From Sumerlaeia bacterium (GTDB lineage: Bacteria; Sumerlaeota; Sumerlaeia; SLMS01; JAHLLQ01): a DNA stretch of 64,000 nucleotides. The position numbers were made by a program, and so were the translations under genes. The first letter of the stretch is position 1; every line of letters starts with the position of its first letter. Under the pieces are notes generated by a model. It had not been told where the DNA came from, did no database searches, and was given only the letters and a program-made list of their open reading frames with translations. The stretch is taken from assembly GCA_040219255.1 (NCBI GenBank), contig JAVJSW010000037.1, positions 96,001 to 160,000 on the forward strand, in the 5' to 3' direction. Below are positions 27,546-62,343 of the stretch, piece after piece.

Positions 27546-27956
27546 CCTCCGGTCCTTGTCTTCCGTGGGTGGAAGCAAAGCGCGGAGATCTTCGTCAAGG
27601 AAGTCGGACTTGTAGGCGCCTTGAATAATCTAAGAAAGTGATAATGGAGGCATGGGAGCCTCGTGGATGGTTGCGAACCCTTGTTCGATCAGGCGGTCCA
27701 GGATTTCGGGTGTCAGGGCTCGGGCATGGCGGTAGTCCACCACGGACGCTTGGCGGATAAAGGGATGACAACCCGGGTTCAAAGTACACGAAGTATCCTG
27801 TGCAGTCCGGCGCCGGGTCACCACGCAAGGCAACAGCATCAGGTGTTCGGGATGGTCCTTCGGCGATGTAATCACGAGGTAGAGGTGAGACTTGCTGCCG
27901 GGCCGCAGGACATCGGCGATCAACACGCAATCGCCCACCGCGTATTGGCGGGCCAC
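27528..27956 (-). pseudogene. Putative PemK/MazF-like toxin interrupted by an in-frame TAG at 27632-27630
   Basis: HLYLVIT...DTSCTLNPGCHPFI..SVVDY; the frame continues after the TAG as IIQGAYKSDFLDEDLRALL... to a second TAG at 27530-27528; GTG start shares one base with the antitoxin stop. Confidence 0.6.
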
Positions 27957-28519
27957 TACTCAGGGTCCTCGGCCACGCGGGAAATCAGCCCATCGGTCCT
28001 CTGAAGTGAAAGCAGTTCTTCGATTTCCTCATCGTCGAATCCCTGGACTTCCAGAATCGCGCGCATGGATATGGGACGGGACGAGGAGCCGGGGTCCTGC
28101 CACTCGGGGAATGTGTGGGTGAGATCGCTGAGGACGAATGGGTCTTCGACCGGCCCGAACTTCTCAACGATTTCCTCCACGATTCGCTGATCGGCGCGGG
28201 ACAAGGTCGTCGCCGGGGTGGACTTCAGAATCGCCATCGTCTGCGAGTTCTCGATGTGATCGAGCCAATAGGCGCCCACACCGGACGCGAGCGGCTCGTC
28301 CACCTTCATCAGGTCGTAAACCTTCGAGAGTACCGGGCCCCAGCGCATGGAATAGGGCCGGTCGCCCGTGATGGGGCTGCCATAACGGCCAATCGCCAGC
28401 CGATCCGCCAAATACATCAACTTGAGCAAGTGAATCCGGGACAACGGCCCGCCTGCCGCCTGCAAGAAGCGGGCGGCGAGTTGCGTGGCCTTTTTCTCGT
28501 TGAAACTCCACTCGAGCAT
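27956..28519 (-). CDS. Panacea-domain (DUF4065/SocA-like) antitoxin
   Basis: FNEKKATQLAARFL, LLKLMYLADR...YGSPITGD, MRWGPV...YD, LSDLTH.FPEW. Confidence 0.85.
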   Translation of the reverse strand: MLEWSFNEKKATQLAARFLQAAGGPLSRIHLLKLMYLADRLAIGRYGSPITGDRPYSMRWGPVLSKVYDLMKVDEPLASGVGAYWLDHIENSQTMAILKSTPATTLSRADQRIVEEIVEKFGPVEDPFVLSDLTHTFPEWQDPGSSSRPISMRAILEVQGFDDEEIEELLSLQRTDGLISRVAEDPE

Positions 28520-28579
28520 TGCTCACCGCCGGGCGAAAACTAGGCGAATGTTGACACAGGCCAGTCCTGTCATCAAGGG

Positions 28580-54001: not shown

Positions 54002-54272
54002 GGCTTGCTCTGATTCCCTTTCTCGATAGTCTCGTGAGCGTGGTCTTTCTGCCAGCTCAATTCATCCTTGCTCGCGATAAGAACGCTCTGCCAACCCCAA
54101 TCCCGCCACCTCCGCGAATCTCCTCCCTCCCCATCCTCCGTGTCCCCAACCCTTGCCGCCGCCCCCGCGCCTTTAATCCTTGCCATCGGACCCGGCTTTC
54201 CAGCCAATGCGCGGTGTGACGGGCGAAAGGATAGCCGATGACTTTTCTCAATTTTTGGGGCGAACGGCGCTG

Positions 54273-55118
54273 ATGGACTCCGATTCTCTCAACAGCCAAC
54301 TGGAACATTTGTACTCGAGCGCGGAAGCCGCCACCTACGAGGGCCTGGTGGACGAGGCCATTCGCCGGTGCGAGACGGCGATGACGCTGCTGGATCAGAA
54401 TTACGAGGAGGAGCTGTCCTTTACCCACTCGGATTTTCTGATGGTGGCCGGCCATGCGTGCTGGAAGGACGGCGACAACGAGGGCGCGTTCCGCTATTAC
54501 CGCCAGGCCTACTCGATGGAGATGGGCCGCACGGACGCTCTGGTGGCGATGGGGGTGGCGCTGTTTTATCTGTGCCGCTTTTCCGCCGCGGCGCATTATC
54601 TCGAGTTGGCCAGCGTCGAGGAGCCCGACAGCGGCGAGGTCTGGTATTTCCTGGGCATTCTGGCGCTGAGGGCCGGCGATGTGCAGAAGGCCGATTTCCA
54701 TTTCGAGCGGGCCGAGGAGCTGGAGCCGGAGCGCCAGCGCCCCGTTTTCCTGCCGGTCGAGCGCATCAGCGCCATCCTGGAGGAGATGTACTCGCGTTAT
54801 CCCGAGGACATTCGCCGCGCCATGGAGAACGTGCCGATTATCCTGGAGGATCGGCCCAGCGAGGCGATGCTGTTTTCCGACAATCCGCCGCTGGACCCGT
54901 TGATGCTGGGCATTTTCGAGGGCACGCCGTTGCCCGAGCGGGCCGATAACGACTTGGCCGCGGGCCTGACCCGCATCGTCCTGTTCCTGGAAAACATCGC
55001 CCTGGTGGCGCCGGACGAGGAGAAGCTGATCGAGGAGCTGGATATCACGCTGAAGCACGAGATCGGCCACTTCCTCGGCCTGGACGAGGACGATCTGCTG
55101 GCCCGCGGGTTGGATTGA
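54273..55118 (+). CDS. TPR protein fused to a zincin-like (Zincin_1/DUF1025) metallopeptidase
   Basis: TPR-like helices; LGIFEGTPL, RIVLF..NI, TLKHEIGHFLGLDEDDL. Confidence 0.88.
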   Translation: MDSDSLNSQLEHLYSSAEAATYEGLVDEAIRRCETAMTLLDQNYEEELSFTHSDFLMVAGHACWKDGDNEGAFRYYRQAYSMEMGRTDALVAMGVALFYLCRFSAAAHYLELASVEEPDSGEVWYFLGILALRAGDVQKADFHFERAEELEPERQRPVFLPVERISAILEEMYSRYPEDIRRAMENVPIILEDRPSEAMLFSDNPPLDPLMLGIFEGTPLPERADNDLAAGLTRIVLFLENIALVAPDEEKLIEELDITLKHEIGHFLGLDEDDLLARGLD

Positions 55119-55157: not shown

Positions 55158-56237
55158 TCATCCCTCGGGCTCCCCCCTCATTGCCCGAATCAGATCGGCG
55201 GCGTCATGCAGGGTGTCGTCGTTCGAGTCGAGATACGGCTCGATCTCCACCGTCGGCACGCAGCCACAGGTCACCACTTCGGCGATGCAGCGGCGGACGA
55301 CGCCCCAAGTGGGGACTTCGGGAAAGTTCGGCTTGGCGAAATCGCTTGGCGATGGGCCCGGGGTCTCGGAACCATCCATGTTCGGCGTGACAACGCCGTT
55401 GTATGTATAGCTATACAATGGCTGGGCATCCAGATGCAGCGTTTCTGTGGTGTAGCCATCCAGCTTGAAATGCACGTCCATCGGACCGACCGGAGCGTCT
55501 TCTCCGAAATAGGCAGAGGAAGGATCTTGTGGCTCCGGAATATCTCCCCAACGAAGAAAGAAATCCGCGAAGGGGCCATCGGTTATGGCCGATTTGAAGA
55601 TATGAGTATCCACTTTCCGTGTGACCAAATTGTTCCCCGGCAGGTACTCTATTGTAATCGTGACCGAACGGTGAAAAAGGTCCGGAATCCATTCCAGGTT
55701 AGGGTACATTGAAGGGACATGGCGGCTATCCGAAAAACTCATGTCGAACTCTATAAACAGATAGTCATCGGTTTCCTCCGGGAGAACGTCGCTTCGATCT
55801 GTCCCAAACGGCCGCAACTCCACCTCGCTCCCCTTCACGGGGGCGAGCCAGGCAAGACGGCTGCTGCCGAAGGCATAACTTTCCGCCCCAAGGTATCCGG
55901 TAATGCAGTGTCCTTCTCCGGAGAATTCTGGAGAAAAAACCTTGAACGCGAGTGGAGTGCCCGCTGGTGCCCCAACTAGGCCATTAAATCCAATAAAGGC
56001 ATCGCTCAAATACGGCTCTTCTCCGTCTACATAAACACAACTTATATCCTCTGGTCCAAATACAATTTGTCTATTCTGCATTCCGACACGCCCCTCCACA
56101 TCATAGAACGGACTGATTATAAAATTCGTCTCCGATGTGATGATGCCAAAAGCGTCCCATGGAAGAAGCGCCAGGCCACCGGCGAGCGCGAGGCCAATCC
56201 GGCTTGTCTTGCTGATTTTCATTCTACGATGGTCCAT
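55158..56237 (-). CDS. AT-richer secreted hypothetical protein with a dockerin-like C-terminus
   Basis: Signal peptide; C-terminal YLDSNDDTLHDAADLIRAM. Confidence 0.65.
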   Translation of the reverse strand: MDHRRMKISKTSRIGLALAGGLALLPWDAFGIITSETNFIISPFYDVEGRVGMQNRQIVFGPEDISCVYVDGEEPYLSDAFIGFNGLVGAPAGTPLAFKVFSPEFSGEGHCITGYLGAESYAFGSSRLAWLAPVKGSEVELRPFGTDRSDVLPEETDDYLFIEFDMSFSDSRHVPSMYPNLEWIPDLFHRSVTITIEYLPGNNLVTRKVDTHIFKSAITDGPFADFFLRWGDIPEPQDPSSAYFGEDAPVGPMDVHFKLDGYTTETLHLDAQPLYSYTYNGVVTPNMDGSETPGPSPSDFAKPNFPEVPTWGVVRRCIAEVVTCGCVPTVEIEPYLDSNDDTLHDAADLIRAMRGEPEG

Positions 56238-56285: not shown

Positions 56286-57347
56286 TCACTCGTTCCTGAG
56301 CGACGCCATATCGATGCAGAAGCGGTACTTCACGTCGGACTTCAGCAGCCGGTCGTAGGCTTCGTTGACTTTCTGAATCGGGATGACTTCCACGTCGGCG
56401 GTGATGTTGTGCGCGCCGCAGAAGTCGAGCATTTCCTGGGTCTGGGGAATGCCGCCGGTGTTCGAACCGGACAGGTTGCGGTTGCCGAACAGGAGGCTGA
56501 AGGCCGACAGCGAGAGGGGCTCGGGCGGCGCGCCGACGAGTGTCATGTTGCCATCGACCTTGACCAGGTTCAGGTAGGCGTCGATGTCGTGCTTCGCCGC
56601 CACGGTATCGAGGATGAAGTCGAAGGTGCCCGCGTGCTTTTTCATCTGGTTGGCGTCGGTGGAAATGACGACTTCGTCGGCGCCCAGGCGCAGGGCGTCG
56701 CCCTTTTTGGACTCGGTGCGGCTGAAAACGGCGACGTGGGCGCCAAAGGCGCGGGCGAATTTGACCGCCATGTGGCCCAGACCGCCCAGGCCCACGACGC
56801 CCACTTTCATTCCCGCCCCCACATTGAACCGCCGCAGCGGCGAATAGGTGGTGATTCCCGCGCAGAGCAGCGGCGCCGCCCCCGCCAGATCCAGGTTCGC
56901 GGGCAGGCGCAGCGCGAAGTGCTCGTGCACGACGATGCTTTCCGAATACCCGCCAAAGGTCATCGGCGCCGTGCCATGGCGGTCGGCGGAGCCAAAGGTC
57001 ATGGTGGCGTCGGGGCAGAAGTTCTCGCGCCCCGCCTTGCACATCGGACACGACAGGTCCGACCCCACGAAACAGCCGACGGCGACCAGATCGCCGGTTT
57101 TGTGCTTCGTCACCTCGGGCCCCACCTTGGCCACCCGGCCCACGATTTCGTGGCCCGGAACGGCGGGATACATGGCGGGGATGGCATCGCTCCATTCGTT
57201 GCGGACAAAGTGCAGGTCCGAGTGGCAGATGCCGCAGTACAGGATTTCGATCTGCACATCGTGGCCTTGGGGGTCGCGGCGATCGATGGCGTCGAGGGCG
57301 AGGGGGGACGTGGCGCTGGCGGCGGAGTAGGCTTTGGCTTTGTACAT
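56286..57347 (-). CDS. Zn-dependent NAD(P)H alcohol dehydrogenase (cinnamyl-ADH/YahK-like)
   Basis: CGICHSD, GHEIVG, LLCAGITTYSPL, GLGGLGH, DVKYRF. Confidence 0.95.
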   Translation of the reverse strand: MYKAKAYSAASATSPLALDAIDRRDPQGHDVQIEILYCGICHSDLHFVRNEWSDAIPAMYPAVPGHEIVGRVAKVGPEVTKHKTGDLVAVGCFVGSDLSCPMCKAGRENFCPDATMTFGSADRHGTAPMTFGGYSESIVVHEHFALRLPANLDLAGAAPLLCAGITTYSPLRRFNVGAGMKVGVVGLGGLGHMAVKFARAFGAHVAVFSRTESKKGDALRLGADEVVISTDANQMKKHAGTFDFILDTVAAKHDIDAYLNLVKVDGNMTLVGAPPEPLSLSAFSLLFGNRNLSGSNTGGIPQTQEMLDFCGAHNITADVEVIPIQKVNEAYDRLLKSDVKYRFCIDMASLRNE

Positions 57348-57582
57348 GGGGCGGTGGCTCCTGAAGGTCGAGGGCGAATGTGCCCACAGCCGGGCGAAGA
57401 GATCAAGTGCGGATCGCTGGGCGGGAACCCGATGGCGCGCGGCGTGGGGCGGGGGAGAGGGGCGTGGGGCGATGAGTTCAGGCCACTTACGCCCGGGGGT
57501 GATTTTCGTCTTTACTTTGCCAGAGAAACGCTTTTTCTTCGTCTGAGAGAGAGACGAACGTTTCCGGACGGTGGTGGCATCG

Positions 57583-58206
57583 ATGTGGTTTTCCCTGCAA
57601 ATCTCCCGTGGCCTCTCCTCTCGCTTGCTGCGCGACCTCGCTCCGCTGGTGCGCCCCCCGGAAAGCGCTCTGTACTGCGTCGATGCGGTGAACGCCTTCG
57701 ATCCCTACGCCTTTGTCCAGGCGGCGCGGCTGTGGAAGGCGGACCCGGACGAGGTCCTGGGCCGGGTGTGGATCACGCGCACGTTCACCATTCATCAACT
57801 CTGTGCCGTGGCCGAGGACATGGTGCCGGCGCTTTTCGCCGAGGGGGCGGGCCCGCCGCCGGCCTTTGTGCTGCTGGGGCTGGACCATCTTTTTCGCGAG
57901 GAGTCGTTGCCCGAACGCGAGCGCGCCCTGGTGCTGAATCGGGTGCTGGCGGCGCTGGAGGGCCTGCCGGCGGAGGCGGAGCTGCTGATGACCTATGAGC
58001 CGCCGCCGACGCACGAGCCGTTCTGGCTGCCGTTGCGCGCGTTCGGCGGGGTGCGGGGGAGGGTTCGTCTCTTGTCGAACGAGGAACTTTGTCTGGAAAT
58101 TGAGGAGACGCCCGATGGGACGCACCGTACCGACTTTCAACATGTGGCTGCAAGAGGAGGAGGACTCCTGGCGTGCCTTTCGGCGAGCCTTGCGCGCGGA
58201 GCATAA
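57583..58206 (+). CDS. Inactive RadA/Rad51/RecA-fold protein (no Walker A), PolB2-associated
   Basis: YCVDAVNAFDPY...EVLGRVWITRTFTIHQL matches the RadA/RadB core (YID..F.P...L.RI.V.RA.T..Q); no GxxGxGKT; alternative GTG start at 57571. Confidence 0.75.
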   Translation: MWFSLQISRGLSSRLLRDLAPLVRPPESALYCVDAVNAFDPYAFVQAARLWKADPDEVLGRVWITRTFTIHQLCAVAEDMVPALFAEGAGPPPAFVLLGLDHLFREESLPERERALVLNRVLAALEGLPAEAELLMTYEPPPTHEPFWLPLRAFGGVRGRVRLLSNEELCLEIEETPDGTHRTDFQHVAARGGGLLACLSASLARGA

Positions 58207-58384
58207 GGGGGCCTTCGACCGCATTTTCACCCGCGCGCGGCGCCACAGCGCCGAATCCGCCGCCGCCGCCCGCGCCGTGCCGTTCGAGGCGCTGGTGTTC
58301 GCCGTGCTGCTGGAAATGGAGCTGGAACTCAAAGAACTGCGCGCGGAGCTGGAAGCCGCGCGGAAAGGCACCCCTGAACCATGA
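58115..58384 (+). CDS. Small helical PolB2-associated protein (arCOG07300-like)
   Basis: MGRTVPTF...W..FRRALR.E.K..FD.IF..AR.H...P.E signature; GAGGAG RBS upstream; ATGA overlap with polB. Confidence 0.8.
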   Translation: MGRTVPTFNMWLQEEEDSWRAFRRALRAEHKGAFDRIFTRARRHSAESAAAARAVPFEALVFAVLLEMELELKELRAELEAARKGTPEP

Positions 58385-60675
58385 ACGCGCAAGGCTGGCT
58401 TTTCGATCTCTACGCCCGCGGGCGTCAGATGGTGCTCTGGTTTGTGCTGGCCGATGGCGGGCGCCTGCGCCTGACCGATCCCTTCGCCCCGGCGGTGTAC
58501 CTCAGCGGCGCCGAGGCGGACGTGGCGGCCTGCGCCGCGCTCCTGGAACGCCACGGCGACGCGGAGGCGGACGGCTGGACCGAGCGGCGCGATTTCTGGA
58601 GCGGCTCCATGCAGCCGGTTTTCGCCGTGCGGCCCCTCGAACTCGACACCTGGCGGTTTCGCCTGCCCGAGTACGCCCACGAATTTCCGCTCCTGGAATG
58701 GTACAACGCCGATCTGCTGCCCGAGCAGCTGTATTGCTACGAGCGCGAACTGTTTCCCCTGATGCGCTGTGAGGTGGATTATGAGGGGACGGAGCTGAGG
58801 CGTCTCACCTCGCGCGACGACCGCTGGGCCATCGAATACGAACTGCCGCCGCTGCGCACCGCCGAGCTGTCGGGCGAGGGGCGGCTCCAGGGCAAGCGCT
58901 CCGTGCTGCGGTCGCTGACCATGGAGTGCGACGGCCGCGCCGTGACCTGGGACGAACCGGCCACGATTCTCGAAGCGTTTCAGGCGGCTCTGGACGATGC
59001 GGACCCGGACGTTTTGATGACGGCCCAGGGCGATGCGTTCTTGATTCCATTGCTCTTATCGATGGCGCGGCGAATGCGTTTCGATCTGCGGCTGGGGCGT
59101 GAATCGGCCGCCGAGGAGCGCCCCATCCGCACGGAAGGGCGGACGTATTTTTCCTATGGCCGGGTGCTCTATCAGGCGCCCGAGCACCAGCTTCTGGGCC
59201 GCTGGCATCTGGACCGGGCGAACAGTTTCGCCATCGCGCACAACGGCCTCGACGGGTTGGCGGAAACGGTGCGGCTCAGCCGAATCCCGCCGCAACGCGC
59301 GGCCCGGCGCTCCATCGGCACCGGCATCACATCGATCCAATTGGACATGGCCTATCGCGAGGGCTACCTGATTCCGTGGAAGAAGACGCAGCCCGAGGCG
59401 TGGAAGTCGGCGCGCCAGCTGCTCACCTCGGACCGGGGCGGCTTGGTGTACGCGCCCGATCCGGGGTTTCATGAAAACGTGGTGGAATTGGATTATATGT
59501 CCATGTACCCGAGCATTATGGCGTGGCGCAATGTGTCGCCGGAAACGGTGAATTGCGATTGCTGCTCGAACCGGACTGTGCCGGAAATCGGCTACACGAT
59601 CTGCGAGCGGCGGGCCGGTTTGGTTTCCCGTTCTCTCGCCCCCATTATCGAAAAGCGCCAAGGATTCAAGAAACTGCGGAAGGCGGCGAAAGAAAATGGT
59701 GATAAAGAGACTTATGATCGCTATCACGCACGCCAGGACGCCCTGAAATGGATGTTGGTTTGCTGTTTTGGCTACCTGGGTTATCGCAACGCCCGATTCG
59801 GCCGCATCGAAGCCCACGAAGCCGTCTCCGCCTATTCCCGCGAGGGGCTCCTGGTGGCGCGGGAGGTGGCGGAAGCCCACGGCTGGAGCGTCCTGCATGC
59901 CAACGTGGATTCGGTGTGGCTGAAAAAACCGGGCTTTCGCGACGAGGAAATCCCTTCGCTCTGCGATGCCATCAATGAAGCGAGCGGCCTGACGATTTCG
60001 CTGGAGGGCATTTATAAATGGGTGGTCTTTTTGCCATCCCGCCAGGTCCAGGACCGCCCCGTGCCGACCCGCTATTTCGGGGCGTTTCGCCATGGCGAAC
60101 TGAAATATCGTGGCATCGAATGCCGGCGGGGGGATTTGCCGATGTTTGTGAAAAAAGCGCAATTGGAGCTGCTGCATCGTCTCGCCGAGGCGGAAGACGA
60201 AAAAGACTATATCGCGATGTGTGAAGAGTTGAACGATCAAATCGACGAATGGGAGCAGCAATTGTGGCGCCGGGAAATTCCGCAGGAGGACCTCGTGATG
60301 CAGCAATCGCTCTCTCAGGACCCGGAAGAATATCGCGGCAATGGGCTTCAGGCGCTCGCCGCGCGGCAGTCGATGGCGGCGGGGCTGAATCTGCATGCCG
60401 GCGAATCGCTGCGCTACCTGATCACCTCGGCGGGCGACCCGGATCGGTCGCGGCGGGTGCGGCTGGAGCCCCTGTGGGATTTCGATACGACGTACGATCC
60501 GGCGGCCTACGTGAAGCTGCTGCGTCGGGCGATGAACACGCTGCTGTGGCCCACCGGCCATCAGCGCGACGAACACGCCATCCGGCCCCCCGGCGCGCCG
60601 CCGCCCGCCCCGCCCCGGCGCAAACGCCCGGGCCATCGCCAACTCGATTTGCTGGAAGGATTCGCGGCGCTATGA
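58381..60675 (+). CDS. polB: Family B DNA polymerase, archaeal PolB2-like
   Basis: Motif A LDYMSMYPS; motif B RQDALKWMLVCCFGYLGY; FGRIEAHE; variant motif C HANVDS; KYRGIECRRGD; degenerate exonuclease domain. Confidence 0.92.
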   Translation: MNAQGWLFDLYARGRQMVLWFVLADGGRLRLTDPFAPAVYLSGAEADVAACAALLERHGDAEADGWTERRDFWSGSMQPVFAVRPLELDTWRFRLPEYAHEFPLLEWYNADLLPEQLYCYERELFPLMRCEVDYEGTELRRLTSRDDRWAIEYELPPLRTAELSGEGRLQGKRSVLRSLTMECDGRAVTWDEPATILEAFQAALDDADPDVLMTAQGDAFLIPLLLSMARRMRFDLRLGRESAAEERPIRTEGRTYFSYGRVLYQAPEHQLLGRWHLDRANSFAIAHNGLDGLAETVRLSRIPPQRAARRSIGTGITSIQLDMAYREGYLIPWKKTQPEAWKSARQLLTSDRGGLVYAPDPGFHENVVELDYMSMYPSIMAWRNVSPETVNCDCCSNRTVPEIGYTICERRAGLVSRSLAPIIEKRQGFKKLRKAAKENGDKETYDRYHARQDALKWMLVCCFGYLGYRNARFGRIEAHEAVSAYSREGLLVAREVAEAHGWSVLHANVDSVWLKKPGFRDEEIPSLCDAINEASGLTISLEGIYKWVVFLPSRQVQDRPVPTRYFGAFRHGELKYRGIECRRGDLPMFVKKAQLELLHRLAEAEDEKDYIAMCEELNDQIDEWEQQLWRREIPQEDLVMQQSLSQDPEEYRGNGLQALAARQSMAAGLNLHAGESLRYLITSAGDPDRSRRVRLEPLWDFDTTYDPAAYVKLLRRAMNTLLWPTGHQRDEHAIRPPGAPPPAPPRRKRPGHRQLDLLEGFAAL

Positions 60676-61481
60676 TTCTGATGGGGACGTCGGGTTTTTC
60701 CTACGAGGATTGGCGCGGGCCGTTTTATCCGGCGGGCCTCGGCAAGAACCGCATGCTCGACGCCTATGCGGAGGTCTTTCCGGCGGTGGAAATCAACGCC
60801 ACCTACTACCGCACGCCGGGCCAGCGCACCGCCGAGGGGCTGGTCGAGCGCGCCGCCGGGCGCCTACGCTTCGCCATCAAAGCCCCCGGCGACCTGACGC
60901 ACAAACGGCGGCTGGACGCGGAAACGCTCGTGCCCTACCGGCGCTTTCTCGAGCCCTTTCGCCAGGCCGAATGTCTCGACGCGATCCTGTTTCAGTTCCC
61001 GAACGCCCTGCGCAATTCGGCGCCGTCGCGGGAGTTTCTCCGGCATGTGCATCAGGAATTCGGCGATTTGCCGCTCGCTTTCGAATTCCGTCACGAATCC
61101 TGGGACCACGACGATGTGGACGATCAGTTGCGGACGTGGGCGGTGTCGCGGGTGGGGGTGGATCAACCGGACCTGCCGGGTCTCTCGCGGTCGCGGCGTT
61201 TCGTGCGGACGGCGCCGCTGGCCTACGTGCGATTCCACGGGCGCAACGCCGCGGACTGGTACGGTCCGGATTCGGGGATGAATCGGTACACGTACACTTA
61301 CAATCAGGAGGAACTCTTCGAAACCGCCGCGCCGATCAAGGCCATGGCCGAGAAGGCGCAATCGACCTTCGTCTTCTTCAACAACCATCCAGAAGGCGGC
61401 GCCCCGCAAAACGCGCTGTTGCTCGGCCAACTCCTCGGTCTGCCGAGACGCCACAGCGAGCAGACGGACTTGTTCGGATAG
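60672..61481 (+). CDS. DUF72 (YecE/YunF-like) TIM-barrel protein
   Basis: GTSGFSYEDW.G.FYP, VEINATYY, FAIKA..LTH, LFQFP, EFRH.SW, YVRFHGRN, FFNN; ATGA overlap with polB. Confidence 0.93.
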   Translation: MILMGTSGFSYEDWRGPFYPAGLGKNRMLDAYAEVFPAVEINATYYRTPGQRTAEGLVERAAGRLRFAIKAPGDLTHKRRLDAETLVPYRRFLEPFRQAECLDAILFQFPNALRNSAPSREFLRHVHQEFGDLPLAFEFRHESWDHDDVDDQLRTWAVSRVGVDQPDLPGLSRSRRFVRTAPLAYVRFHGRNAADWYGPDSGMNRYTYTYNQEELFETAAPIKAMAEKAQSTFVFFNNHPEGGAPQNALLLGQLLGLPRRHSEQTDLFG

Positions 61482-61497
61482 TGGCTCAAAAAGGTGA

Positions 61498-61594
61498 CAC
61501 GGGCGTCTGAGCCCGTGCCGAAGACTCTGTGTAAGCCAAGACTTTTCAGTGATCGAGGAAGCGTGGCAGGTCATGGGCGGGACGCCCATGGTAC
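61498..61594. repeat. Pair of REP-like palindromes between convergent genes
   Basis: CACGGGC-GTCTGA-GCCCGTG (61498-61517) and CATGGGCG-GGA-CGCCCATG (61572-61590). Confidence 0.55.
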
Positions 61595-61599
61595 ATAGG

Positions 61600-62343
61600 T
61601 CAGTACTCCACAACCTCGGTGCCCTCGGGGAACTTGGTCTCGAACTTGTCTTCCGGAATGTCGGCGTTGAATTCGACTTCCTTGAGGTTCACCGTCACGA
61701 CGTCTTCTTCTTCTTCGAGGACGAGGACCATCGGCTCCAACTCGGCCGTGTCGAAGGTGATGGTGATCTTGGAGTAGCCGAGCGTGCGGTCGAGATCGCG
61801 GGAGACGAAATCGACGATCAGCAGGTTTTCCTCGGCCGGCTGGATCGGCGCCAGCTTGACGTCGAACAGTTCGAGGATGCGTTCGGTCTGAACGCCAAAG
61901 CCCACCAGCATCTGGTTGATGGGGGCGCCGTCGCCGCTTTCCAGGGTGTACTTTTCGACCTGCTTGAGTTCCGGCGTGTAGGTGGTGAGGTCGTTGCCGA
62001 GCATGTAGAAACTCATCCGCGTCGGCTCATAGTAGTCGCAGCGGAACTTGCTGGGCTTCTTGTACCAGAACTCGCCGTTGCTGTGGATTTCGTCGAGGAA
62101 CATCGTGTTGATGCGGGTTTGCTCGAACACGCCGTGGAGCGTGGTGACGTCCTTGTTTTTTTCTTCGATTTTGCGCAGGAAAGTTTCCGCCTGCTCGCGC
62201 AACTCCTGGGGCGTGACGACCTTGGGGGTGGTGGCGGCGGCGGGAGTGGCCGGGGCGGATTCCTGAGCCCAGGCGGCTCCTCCGGCGAAAAGGGCCAAGG
62301 AGAGTGCGAAGGCGGCAGCGATATGTTTCAATGAGGTAGTCAT
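61600..62343 (-). CDS. Outer-membrane lipoprotein carrier LolA-like protein
   Basis: Signal peptide; FEQT...GEFWYKKPSKFRCDY, YTPELKQV, N.DIPEDKF...P.GTEV. Confidence 0.85.
   Translation of the reverse strand: MTTSLKHIAAAFALSLALFAGGAAWAQESAPATPAAATTPKVVTPQELREQAETFLRKIEEKNKDVTTLHGVFEQTRINTMFLDEIHSNGEFWYKKPSKFRCDYYEPTRMSFYMLGNDLTTYTPELKQVEKYTLESGDGAPINQMLVGFGVQTERILELFDVKLAPIQPAEENLLIVDFVSRDLDRTLGYSKITITFDTAELEPMVLVLEEEEDVVTVNLKEVEFNADIPEDKFETKFPEGTEVVEY

What the first reader, a model, noticed from the sequence alone, without database searches (positions are those of the whole stretch)
57583..61481. Four-gene PolB2 cassette in a bacterium: inactive RadA-fold + small helical protein + PolB2 + DUF72 (candidate alternative mutasome)
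Seen: four same-strand genes, each overlapping the next (one 92-nt overlap and two ATGA junctions), bounded by a divergent ADH gene and a convergent lolA-like gene. Established: archaeal PolB2 genes commonly sit with arCOG07300 and a RadA-like gene, Sulfolobus Dpo2 (a PolB2) is a damage-inducible polymerase, and bacterial imuA-imuB-dnaE2 mutasomes also pair an inactive RecA-fold protein with an error-prone polymerase. Inference: this is a bacterial analogue of ImuABC built on an archaeal-type B-family polymerase, extended by a DUF72 TIM-barrel as a possible lesion-processing partner. I know of no experimental characterisation of such a bacterial module.
Basis: partly seen in the sequence, partly recalled or inferred. 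Interest (0 to 1): 0.88.

Follow-up and report, generated by a model that had tools for sequence, protein, structure and literature searches.

The report
Bacterial PolB2 mutasome operon with DUF72
This is a four-gene DNA-damage-tolerance operon built around an archaeal-type, proofreading-less polymerase; the same kind of operon was described by computer analysis in 2025, so it is a good new example, not a discovery.

Summary
Four same-strand genes lie at 57583-61481 with a 92-nt overlap and two ATGA junctions. They sit between a divergent Zn-ADH gene and a convergent LolA gene.

ORF1 is a RadA-fold protein without Walker A/B (iRadA). ORF2 is an all-helical 89-aa protein that starts with MGRT (PPB2/arCOG07300). 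ORF3 is a B-family polymerase with NVD in place of DxD, and it ends in a beta-clamp-type motif, QLDLL. ORF4 is DUF72.

Timinskas, Timinskas and Venclovas (2025, PMC11791011) describe bacterial iRadA-PPB2-PolB2 operons in this gene order. They report the MGRT arm, the clamp motifs and the enrichment of lexA and DUF72 nearby.

- The window carries a LexA-box-like site upstream. Relatives carry strong boxes of the same kind.
- DUF72 lies directly downstream of PolB2 in 9 of 25 PolB2-bearing genomes of the phylum. It is linked in four different arrangements across phyla.
- A DUF72 subfamily ends in a canonical clamp-binding motif, QTDLF in the window. I found no report of this.
- The module co-occurs with DinB and a DnaE paralogue, so it does not replace them.

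I saw no experimental work on any bacterial member.

The parts
57505..57521 (+). LexA-box-like direct repeat TTCGTC-N5-TTTGCC, 62 nt upstream of the iRadA ATG
   Evidence: The PWM was built from the lexA promoters of 19 relatives, with the window's own genome left out. The site scores 13.46 bits. 179 of 10.69 million genome positions score as high, so about 0.008 are expected in this intergenic region. The same PWM hits the genome's own lexA (19.8 bits), recA upstream (18.0) and dinB upstream (17.0 and 16.5). The homologous boxes upstream of 12 relatives' PolB2 operons score 11.5-21.9.
57583..58206 (+). iRadA: RadA/Rad51-fold protein with the ATPase motifs lost (207 aa). Residues 181-207 are a low-confidence tail encoded over the PPB2 start.
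   Evidence: A profile of 55 relatives matches P. furiosus RadA (4a6p) at E 3.2e-10. The AF2 model has pLDDT 84.8 and pTM 0.80. The best Foldseek PDB hits are RadA/Rad51/DMC1 cores, with TM 0.66-0.74. There is no GxxGxGK[ST], and G stands where RadA has the Walker B Asp (my reading of the alignments).
58115..58384 (+). PPB2 (arCOG07300-type 'partner of PolB2'), 89 aa, with an N-terminal MGRT arm
   Evidence: MGRT is the N-terminus in 57 of 65 relatives. The AF2 model has pLDDT 87.6, with five helices and a free arm at residues 1-7. All 30 nearest Atlas clusters are DUF8156, with bacterial and archaeal members; this is a lead only. The MGRT arm is described in PMC11791011.
58381..60675 (+). PolB2-type family B DNA polymerase, 764 aa
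   Evidence: PF00136 matches at 4e-27. The best NCBIfam model is NF004418 at 406.8 bits, against 72 bits for the best Pol II model. The best PDB hits are Thermococcales PolB at 5e-46, against 7.9e-8 for E. coli Pol II. The motif A Asp is kept and motif C reads NVD.
60640..60654 (+). Beta-clamp-type motif QLDLL near the PolB2 C-terminus
   Evidence: Tails matching Qxx[LF][FLW] occur in most PolB2 proteins of the phylum and in the alignment. Clamp motifs in bacterial PolB2 or iRadA are described in PMC11791011. Binding was not tested.
60672..61481 (+). DUF72 TIM-barrel protein, 269 aa, translationally coupled to PolB2
   Evidence: PF01904 scores 180.6 bits against a cut-off of 25.3. It matches TM1631 (1vpq) at E 3.1e-43. 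It is the only DUF72 gene found in this genome.
61461..61475 (+). Clamp-type motif QTDLF at the DUF72 C-terminus
   Evidence: Among the 120 listed homologues, nearly all of the closest ones (about the top 38) end in ..D[LM]F plus 0-3 residues; the more distant ones lack the tail. In the phylum, 14 of 28 complete DUF72 proteins carry such a tail, including QLELF, QLSLL and QLDIF in genomes without PolB2.
61496..61519 (.). GC-rich hairpin between the convergent DUF72 and LolA genes (terminator-like)
   Evidence: It is a consensus match on the minus strand only. Seven such sites were found against 5.0 expected, so the evidence is weak.

Best explanation
This is a member of the bacterial PolB2 (G2) 'mutasome' operon family in a Candidatus Sumerlaeota genome. 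The four genes are made from one message by coupled translation.

Proposed mechanism. Each step below is inferred, from published models or from sequence features:
- One iRadA, probably three PPB2 and one PolB2 assemble into the heteropentamer that has been modelled for this family.
- PolB2 lacks proofreading. It extends mismatched or lesion-opposed primer ends, as Sulfolobus Dpo2 does.
- PolB2 is brought to the replication fork by its C-terminal beta-clamp motif.
- Expression is probably under LexA. Relatives have a strong LexA box over the -10 region, abutting the iRadA start. The window has a weaker copy of that box.
- DUF72 is co-expressed. It is most likely a clamp-tethered nuclease related to Endo IV and UVDE that incises or trims damaged DNA, and so prepares or shares substrates with PolB2.

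Shown here: the gene identities, the folds of ORF1 and ORF2, the motifs, the conservation of order, the recurrence of the DUF72 link, and the box.

Inferred: complex formation, TLS activity, damage induction, and any activity of DUF72.
For: Identity of the genes:
- iRadA.
- PPB2.
- PolB2.
- DUF72.

Operon order. iRadA-PPB2-PolB2 holds in 57 of 57 loci that have both partners, and in 56 of 63 loci with enough upstream DNA.

Literature. PMC11791011 (sections 3.1 and 3.3 read) describes this order as the only one found in bacteria. It also describes the MGRT arm, the pentamer models, the clamp motifs and the enrichment of lexA, SRAP and DUF72. For archaeal Dpo2, damage induction and extender TLS come from PMC7390963 and PMC8764526; I saw only the abstract starts in the listing.

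SOS box.

DUF72 link:
- 14 of 80 loci across phyla, and 11 of the 36 loci with at least 5 kb on both sides.
- 9 of 25 PolB2-bearing genomes of the phylum have it directly downstream.
- Four different arrangements occur in separate PolB2 clades. At least 9 changes of state are forced by well-supported branches.
- 22 of 25 PolB2-positive genomes have DUF72, against 24 of 50 PolB2-negative ones. These genomes are kin, so the counts are not independent.

Clamp-type tails on DUF72.

DUF72 as an Endo IV-like DNA enzyme has been predicted in silico for TM1631 (PMC3828134, abstract read).

The window's PolB2 sits inside the Sumerlaeota clade (support 100), so it looks inherited within the phylum.
Against: No experiment exists on any bacterial PolB2, iRadA, PPB2 or DUF72 in what I could search.

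The window's copy departs from its family in three places:
- The conserved D(K/R) loop motif, said to contact the PPB2 arm, reads GR here and DR in the other 15 of 16 aligned sequences.
- The LexA-type box has about four changes relative to kin and scores 13.5 bits, against 17-22 bits in 8 of 12 relatives.
- The ATG that abuts the box in kin is gone, so the start lies 62 nt downstream.

No sigma-70-like promoter was found by the consensus scan.

DUF72 is absent from the neighbourhood in most PolB2 loci. It also occurs, with the same clamp-type tail, in genomes without PolB2. It may therefore be an independent repair enzyme.

Seven of the 63 loci with enough upstream DNA have PolB2 without iRadA or PPB2 upstream. 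Two of those seven have masked stretches.

I could not place the polymerase on a tree with archaeal PolB1, PolB2 and PolB3, because no reference sequences could be fetched.
Confidence: 0.72

Rival explanations
1. The three-gene PolB2 module is as described, but DUF72 is only a co-regulated passenger. It would be a general clamp-associated repair enzyme that often lands in SOS operons, with no functional or physical coupling to PolB2.
For: DUF72 is adjacent in only 9 of 25 PolB2-bearing genomes of the phylum, and in 14 of 80 loci across phyla. 24 of 50 PolB2-negative genomes have DUF72. Clamp-type tails (QLELF, QLSLL, QLDIF, QPDLF) occur on DUF72 in PolB2-negative genomes. The linked DUF72 copies of Ignavibacteriota are divergent in orientation and have no such tail.
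Against: The link recurs in four arrangements in separate PolB2 clades. It is far more frequent than position by chance would give: roughly a 12-kb span in a genome of about 4 Mb, against 11 of 36 fully flanked loci. In the window and its kin the two genes are contiguous, and here the stop and start overlap. The window's genome has no other DUF72.
Confidence: 0.35
2. The polymerase is catalytically dead in this organism, and the module has a non-synthetic role such as lesion sensing, clamp occupancy or regulation. Alternatively, the copy is drifting towards loss.
For: The first Asp of motif C is Asn. Motif B is far from the KxxxNSxYG consensus (recalled), reading KWMLVCCFG. The D(K/R) motif is GR here only. 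The box is degenerate and the start is displaced.
Against: All four frames are intact, and the motif A Asp and the second motif C Asp are kept. Loss of the first Asp is the rule in PolB2. According to PMC11791011 and the abstract start of PMC8764526, it does not abolish activity in S. islandicus Dpo2. The same motif B variant is conserved in all 16 aligned sequences, which speaks for selection.
Confidence: 0.1
3. The cassette is part of a mobile element or an anti-phage defence system, not a chromosomal repair module.
For: One distant homologue carries TIR domains fused to the polymerase (P0106). PolB2 is patchy in the phylum, found in 25 of the 75 genomes searched.
Against: There is no PADLOC match except to the polymerase part of an intein or homing-endonuclease model. 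The flanks are housekeeping-type genes. GC content is 0.59-0.68, like the surrounding DNA. The polymerase tree follows the phylum. The box is of the lexA/recA/dinB type.
Confidence: 0.03

Closest known systems
Bacterial PolB2 (group G2) operon iRadA-PPB2-PolB2 (Timinskas, Timinskas and Venclovas 2025, PMC11791011; called G2/PolB2 in PMC12926913)
   Same: Same gene order and strand. Same inactive RadA homologue, MGRT-armed small helical protein, PolB without the first Asp of DxD, and C-terminal beta-clamp motif on one component. DUF72 and LexA are associated in both.
   Different: The window's PolB2 has GR instead of the D(K/R) loop motif. DUF72 is fused into the operon by an ATGA junction and carries its own clamp-type tail; the main text of that paper reports neither. 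This member is from Sumerlaeota. I could not see the supplement to learn whether that phylum is in their set.
Sulfolobus islandicus Dpo2 (archaeal PolB2) with arCOG07300 and a RadA paralogue
   Same: Same three-protein module. It has no proofreading and no canonical DxD. It is the only member with experimental support for damage induction and extender-type TLS (abstract starts).
   Different: It is archaeal, it uses PCNA and not the beta clamp, and its regulation involves Orc1/Cdc6 and not LexA. Sequence relatedness to the window was not measured here.
ImuA-ImuB-DnaE2 (ImuABC) mutasome
   Same: It pairs a RecA-fold accessory protein without recombinase function with an error-prone polymerase, is under SOS control and depends on the clamp (recalled knowledge).
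   Different: The polymerase belongs to the C family, not the B family, and there is an inactive Y-family adaptor and no PPB2. It is not homologous. This genome also has a divergent DnaE paralogue cassette of its own, so the two are not mutually exclusive here.
E. coli Pol V (UmuD'2C-RecA-ATP)
   Same: It is a multisubunit TLS polymerase that uses a RecA-family protein and the beta clamp. PMC11791011 draws the architectural parallel (abstract).
   Different: It has a Y-family polymerase and uses active RecA from a filament. No UmuD-like protein was found in this genome beyond LexA and one weak S24 hit.
E. coli Pol II (PolB)
   Same: It is a family B polymerase in a bacterium, SOS-regulated, with a clamp motif (recalled).
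   Different: Pol II has an active exonuclease and stands alone. The window's protein scores 72 bits against the best Pol II NCBIfam model (cut-off 570), against 407 bits for NF004418.
TM1631 (DUF72, PDB 1VPQ); Endo IV and UVDE TIM-barrel nucleases
   Same: The window's ORF4 aligns with TM1631 over 254 residues at E 3.1e-43. TM1631 was predicted in silico to be an Endo IV-like DNA repair nuclease (PMC3828134 abstract). PMC11791011 calls the fold close to UVDE.
   Different: No DUF72 activity has been measured. TM1631 has no clamp-type tail in the aligned part, and I did not test conservation of catalytic residues.

Membership tests
Bacterial PolB2 (G2) mutasome operon | Genes in the order iRadA-PPB2-PolB2 on one strand | tested here: met
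   The same order holds in 57 of 57 related loci that have both partners.
Bacterial PolB2 (G2) mutasome operon | iRadA: RadA/Rad51 core with the ATPase site inactivated | tested here: met
   A profile matches RadA at E 3.2e-10. The model has pLDDT 84.8. Foldseek gives TM 0.66-0.74 to RadA/Rad51/DMC1. The Walker A and B residues are absent by my reading.
Bacterial PolB2 (G2) mutasome operon | PPB2: small helical protein with a conserved N-terminal MGRT arm | tested here: met
   The window starts MGRTVPTF. 57 of 65 relatives start MGRT. The model is helical with a free arm.
Bacterial PolB2 (G2) mutasome operon | PolB with the first Asp of motif C (DxD) replaced, and the motif A Asp and second motif C Asp kept | tested here: met
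   Motif A reads LDYMSMYPS and motif C reads NVD.
Bacterial PolB2 (G2) mutasome operon | Inactivated 3'-5' exonuclease domain | tested here: inconclusive
   Only a 15.6-bit match covers the Exo II region. The window reads GDAFLIP where Pyrococcus PolB has GDNFxFP. The Exo I-like stretch is LTMECDG. Which residues are catalytic is recalled, not tested.
Bacterial PolB2 (G2) mutasome operon | Conserved D(K/R) loop motif that contacts the PPB2 arm | tested here: not met
   The window has G-R, and the 15 other aligned sequences have D-R. This is a single-residue departure; the Arg is kept.
Bacterial PolB2 (G2) mutasome operon | Beta-clamp motif on PolB2 or on iRadA | tested here: met
   The PolB2 tail reads ..RQLDLLEGFAAL, and kin have Qxx[LF][FLW]. 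This is the sequence motif only; binding was not tested.
Bacterial PolB2 (G2) mutasome operon | Groups with archaeal PolB2 in a tree, apart from PolB1, PolB3 and Pol II | not testable with these tools
   No archaeal or Pol II reference sequences could be fetched. Indirect evidence: NF004418 scores 407 bits and NF004416 349, against 72 for Pol II; PDB Thermococcales PolB matches at 5e-46, against 7.9e-8 for Pol II. NF004418 stays below its cut-off of 692. It passes that cut-off in one unnamed control genome.
Bacterial PolB2 (G2) mutasome operon | Heteropentamer of PolB2, iRadA and three PPB2 | not tested
Modelled only in PMC11791011.
SOS (LexA) regulon | LexA box in the promoter | tested here: inconclusive
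   The window's site scores 13.46 bits, with about 0.008 expected in the region. Kin operons score 11.5-21.9. The box type is validated only by hits at the genome's own lexA, recA and dinB. No binding data exist.
ImuABC mutasome | C-family DnaE2 polymerase with a Y-family-like ImuB | tested here: not met
   The polymerase is family B. The module is an analogue, not a member.
E. coli-type Pol II | Passes the Pol II equivalog models | tested here: not met
   NF004421 scores 72 bits against a cut-off of 570.
DUF72 (PF01904) | Pfam gathering score | tested here: met
   180.6 bits against 25.3.
UVDE / Endo IV nucleases | Metal-binding catalytic residues and incision activity | not tested
   The fold relation is taken from papers. 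Nothing was computed here.

The most novel reading that the evidence does not exclude
DUF72 is a beta-clamp-tethered lesion-processing nuclease. In lineages such as this one it has been recruited as a fourth working part of the PolB2 mutasome. It would incise or trim at a lesion, and the clamp-bound PolB2 complex would then extend from that end: an SOS-induced 'nick and extend' route. This would give the large DUF72/YecE family its first function. The recurrent ~100-nt out-of-frame iRadA/PPB2 overlap might also allow an iRadA-PPB2 fusion to be made by frameshifting, mirroring the in-frame fusions reported in other bacteria.
Probability: 0.3. Interest if true: 0.62.

Novelty: new member of a known kind. 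Interest (0 to 1): 0.36.

Why it matters
Bacterial PolB2 mutasomes are known only from computer analysis, and no member has been purified or tested genetically. This window offers a compact, intact, translationally coupled four-gene version that could be cloned as one piece.

It points to two testable additions. First, the operon sits behind a direct-repeat LexA box that also marks lexA, recA and dinB in this phylum. Second, a subfamily of the uncharacterised DUF72 proteins carries a canonical clamp-binding tail. If that tail works, DUF72 acts on DNA at sliding clamps.

Tried and rejected
Complex prediction of the genome's DnaN with DUF72 (collected) gave no verdict: the score was 0.30 and the mark is 0.32, and the controls were not run. 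It counts neither for nor against clamp binding.

Sequencing runs: no RNA holder was listed, and one DNA run held 0.40 of the words. This says nothing about expression.

RNA fold of the 5' region 57500-57600: z-score 0.12, so there is no support for a structured leader. I drop the hairpin TTCGTCT-N7-AGACGAA seen by eye as a feature. My first guesses at a palindromic LexA box (CGAA..TTCG) were replaced by the direct repeat once the relatives' lexA promoters were aligned.

PADLOC: only the polymerase part of a homing-endonuclease model matched. I rejected the defence reading.

Pfam and NCBIfam gave nothing for ORF1 and ORF2, apart from a 0.086 RadA hit. DUF8156, suggested by the Atlas, did not appear in the local Pfam copy even at E up to 10.

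NF004418 and NF004416 in the control genomes: the output does not say which control passes, so it did not help to name the models as PolB2.

The 473-aa ORF upstream of the DnaE paralogue gave no PDB or Atlas match, so an ImuB identity is not shown.

A search for Kazlauskas et al. 2020 did not find the paper. I know it only as reference [24]/[32] of the two papers I read.

The tree used FastTree.
- Of the loci with a PolB2 match, 97 gave rows with at least 600 aligned residues.
- Five duplicates of the same contigs were dropped, leaving 92 rows.
- L129, which has a partial DUF72 downstream, was wrongly labelled 'none'.
- 'None' also covers loci with short flanks.
- The counts of changes are therefore rough.

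The PWM left out the genome's own lexA and one outlier (L198). L185, L196, L197 and L199 gave no instance by my rule.

Supplements of PMC11791011 (Table S1, data file 1) are closed. They may hold the DUF72 counts, the taxa covered and perhaps clamp motifs outside PolB2 and iRadA.

Full report
Observation.
- ORF1 runs 57583-58206. A GTG at 57571 is an alternative start, and there is an in-frame stop at 57544.
- ORF2 runs 58115-58384.
- ORF3 runs 58381-60675.
- ORF4 runs 60672-61481.

All four are on the + strand. ORF1 and ORF2 overlap by 92 nt, with ORF2 in the +1 frame. The other two junctions are ATGA (..CCATGAAC.. and ..CTATGATT..). Upstream lies a divergent zinc alcohol dehydrogenase at 56286-57347 (-). 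Downstream lies a convergent LolA-family gene at 61600-62343 (-). GC content across the cassette is 0.59-0.68, like the flanks.

ORF1 is an inactivated RadA.
- Pfam finds nothing, and NCBIfam gives only a 0.086 hit to RadA.
- A profile of 55 relatives taken from related loci (alignment A2) matches Pyrococcus RadA (4a6p, 1pzn) at E 3.2e-10 and 6.5e-10.
- The AlphaFold2 model has mean pLDDT 84.8 and pTM 0.80.
- Its best PDB matches are all RadA/Rad51/DMC1 ATPase cores, with probability 1.0 and TM 0.66-0.74.
- In the alignments there is no GxxGxGK[ST] after the first strand, and the Walker B Asp of RadA (..LLIVDSL..) is Gly in the family (..vilGlldtfyDE..). This is my reading of those alignments.
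- Residues 181-207 have low confidence. They are the part encoded over the start of ORF2.

ORF2 is PPB2.
- It begins MGRTVPTF.
- Of 65 relatives found next to PolB2 genes, 57 begin MGRT, 4 begin MGRN and 2 begin VGRT. The other 2 are cut by contig ends.
- The model (pLDDT 87.6) is five helices behind a free seven-residue arm.
- All 30 nearest clusters in the ESM Atlas are 'DUF8156', with bacterial and archaeal members. This is a lead only; the local Pfam copy does not report it.
- The Atlas holds this protein only from residue 26.

ORF3 is a PolB2-type polymerase.
- PF00136 matches at 4e-27.
- NCBIfam ranks NF004418 (406.8 bits, cut-off 692) and NF004416 (349.4 bits) far above the 'DNA polymerase I' archaeal models (up to 156 bits) and the Pol II models (up to 72 bits).
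- In the PDB the best relatives are Thermococcales PolB (5.4e-46), then S. solfataricus Dpo1 (1.4e-19), Pol alpha (2.7e-18) and E. coli Pol II (7.9e-8).
- Motif A keeps its Asp (LDYMSMYPS).
- Motif C reads NVD, so the first Asp of DxD is lost and the second is kept.
- Motif B is the family-specific KW(M/L)LVCCFGYLGY.
- The exonuclease region is barely recognisable, with a 15.6-bit match over Exo II.
- The C-terminus reads ..RQLDLLEGFAAL. Relatives in the phylum have QPDLF, QTDLF, QMDLF, QLDFL and the like. This is the beta-clamp motif type.
- One departure: the loop motif D(K/R) is GR in the window and DR in the 15 other aligned sequences.

ORF4 is DUF72. PF01904 scores 180.6 bits. The protein aligns end to end with TM1631 (1vpq, E 3.1e-43). 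It is the only DUF72 gene found in this 92%-complete genome.

What is already known. A full-text search led to Timinskas, Timinskas and Venclovas 2025 (PMC11791011). I read its outline and abstract, section 3.1, passages and part 1 of section 3.3. It states the following:
- PolB2 passed from archaea to bacteria, probably once.
- Bacteria have only the order iRadA-PPB2-PolB2.
- Most PolB2 proteins lack the first Asp of DxD.
- PPB2 is a trimer whose MGRT arm inserts between PolB2 and iRadA.
- PolB2 binds iRadA through a RadA-oligomerisation-like motif.
- Beta-clamp motifs occur on bacterial PolB2 or iRadA.
- lexA, SRAP and DUF72 are enriched near bacterial polB2.
- DUF72 is a TIM barrel close to UV-damage endonuclease.

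A 2026 survey (PMC12926913, passages) calls the group G2/PolB2 and cites only archaeal experiments. Two older in-silico papers predict that TM1631 is an Endo IV-like repair nuclease (PMC3828134, abstract; PMC4939058, listing). Only the absence of bacterial experiments stands.

Distribution.
- The protein search found 4631 proteins with E at or below 1e-10 among the 8000 candidates scored. The nearest is 66% identical, and the named ones are Candidatus Sumerlaeota/Sumerlaeia.
- A scan of one genome per species found 578 confirmed relatives among 599 matched stretches, and 80 were kept. They come from Sumerlaeota, Acidobacteriota, Methylomirabilota, Thermodesulfobacteriota, Chloroflexota, Nitrospirota, Bacteroidota, Ignavibacteriota and others.
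- In those 80 loci, iRadA was found in 57, PPB2 in 65 and DUF72 in 14.
- Of the 63 loci with at least 1 kb upstream, 56 have both partners and 7 have neither. Two of those 7 contain masked stretches.
- Of the 36 loci with at least 5 kb on both sides, 11 contain DUF72.
- In the window's phylum, 25 of 75 genomes have PolB2 and 46 of 75 have DUF72.
- DUF72 is present in 22 of 25 PolB2-positive genomes and in 24 of 50 PolB2-negative ones.
- It lies directly downstream on the same strand in 9 of the 25. These genomes are kin, so the counts are not independent.
- On a FastTree of 92 PolB2 proteins the window sits inside the Sumerlaeota clade (support 100).
- The DUF72 link appears in four arrangements in separate clades: downstream same-strand in Sumerlaeota and one Nitrospirota; upstream same-strand in Bacteroidota and Kryptoniota; upstream divergent in Ignavibacteriota; downstream convergent in one Chloroflexota. 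Well-supported branches force at least 9 changes of state. The caveats are given under Tried and rejected.

Regulation.
- The lexA promoters of 24 relatives share TTGAC-n-TTC[GA]CC-N5-TTCGC, a direct repeat with an 11-bp period.
- I built a weight matrix from 19 of them, leaving out the window's own genome, and scanned the window's genome (10.69 million positions).
- It picks out the genome's own lexA (19.8 bits, rank 7), a site about 150 nt before recA (18.0 bits) and two sites before dinB (17.0 and 16.5 bits). This supports the element as the LexA box of the lineage.
- Upstream of the PolB2 operons of 12 relatives the same box occurs, typically as TTGACA-N17-19 followed by TTCGCTTTTATTTCGCC and then at once by the ATG. 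The scores are 11.5-21.9 bits, and 8 of 12 score at least 17. The box covers the -10 region, and the message would be nearly leaderless.
- The window has the homologous element at 57505-57521 with about four changes. It scores 13.46 bits, and 179 genome positions score as high, so about 0.008 are expected in this intergenic region.
- The adjoining ATG is lost, and the start lies 62 nt further on.
- Damage induction is therefore likely in the family and plausible, but weaker, here.
- No RNA data were found. This is not evidence either way.

DUF72 tail.
- The window's DUF72 ends ..SEQTDLFG.
- Among the 120 best homologues, nearly all of the closest ones (about the top 38) end in ..D[LM]F plus 0-3 residues. 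Many come from contigs of the same size as contigs that carry PolB2 hits. The more distant homologues stop right after the barrel.
- In the phylum, 14 of 28 complete DUF72 proteins have such a tail. Some are in PolB2-negative genomes, and there the tail is canonical (TQLELF, EQLSLL, AQLDIF, TQPDLFG).
- The tail is therefore a trait of a DUF72 subfamily and is not specific to PolB2.
- It matches the clamp motif QL[SD]LF, a consensus I recall and which is quoted as QLxLF.
- Searches for DUF72 with 'clamp' and for YecE with 'sliding clamp' found no report of it. The supplements of the 2025 paper could not be checked.
- The one complex prediction (DnaN with DUF72) gave no verdict.

Other TLS genes.
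- The genome has LexA, RecA and DinB (NF002677, 312 bits, above its cut-off).
- It has no clear UmuD.
- Besides DnaE1 it has a divergent 1061-aa DnaE paralogue, preceded by two ORFs of unknown family.
- That paralogue is found in 60 of the 75 genomes of the phylum that were searched, including nearly all PolB2-positive ones.
- PolB2 is thus an addition to, not a substitute for, other damage-tolerance polymerases in this lineage.

Verdict. This is a real, intact member of a computationally described but experimentally untouched system. I rate its novelty as a new member of a known kind. The most interesting loose end is DUF72: it recurs next to PolB2 in several arrangements, it is welded into the operon here, and it carries a clamp-type tail.

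Noticed in passing
G000 contig C68, locus L092:863-6477 (outside the window): A second, divergent DnaE-like gene of 1061 aa carries a PHP domain, a partial palm and an HhH motif, and scores far below all NCBIfam cut-offs. It follows two same-strand ORFs of 214 and 473 aa that match no family, so this may be a diverged imuA/imuB/imuC-type cassette. The paralogue is found in 60 of the 75 genomes of the phylum that were searched. In G007 it lies about 3 kb from lexA. No LexA-type box lies upstream in the window's genome (best score 9.1 bits).
   Followed up: partly
window 27956-28548 (-): A strong LexA-type box (18.7 bits, ATTCGCCTAGTTTTCGCC) lies just upstream of a 187-aa SocA/Panacea-domain antitoxin-like gene (PF13274, 1.5e-18). 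This would be an SOS-controlled Panacea gene.
   Followed up: partly
loci L003, L025, L036, L048, L051, L052, L054, L069, L076 and others; window 58115-58206: A long out-of-frame overlap of iRadA over the PPB2 start recurs in 13 of 57 loci. Eight of them overlap by exactly 104 nt, and 12 of the 13 use the same +1 relation as the window. The iRadA tails look conserved only because PPB2's N-terminus is conserved in the other frame. Whether a frameshift makes an iRadA-PPB2 fusion is open.
   Followed up: partly
lexA loci L176-L199; PolB2 loci L120-L130: The lineage's LexA box is a direct repeat, TTCGC-N6-TTCGC, reminiscent of the alphaproteobacterial GTTC-N7-GTTC (recalled). In kin PolB2 operons it abuts the start codon, which implies leaderless or near-leaderless messages.
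   Followed up: partly
G000 contig C78:47385-48467 (L118): There is a second DnaN paralogue (TIGR00663, 152.8 bits) besides the canonical one on C70. A 14.4-bit LexA-type site lies upstream.
   Followed up: no
protein P0106: A PolB2 homologue of 885 aa carries TIR domains (PF01582, PF13676) fused to the polymerase. Its context is unknown.
   Followed up: no
loci L007, L009, L013, L043, L060: PolB2 genes with at least 2 kb of readable upstream DNA but no iRadA or PPB2 next to them. In L007 the upstream genes are rimM- and KH-like, and that PolB2 still ends in QTDLF.
   Followed up: partly
window 58115 versus 58190: The public gene call held by the ESM Atlas starts PPB2 at residue 26 (TTG) and so loses the conserved MGRT arm. 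Automatic annotation avoids the 92-nt overlap.
   Followed up: yes
window 55158-56237 (-): A 359-aa ORF with a signal-like N-terminus and no Pfam match lies next to a TPR plus Zincin_1 protein at 54180-55118 (+).
   Followed up: no
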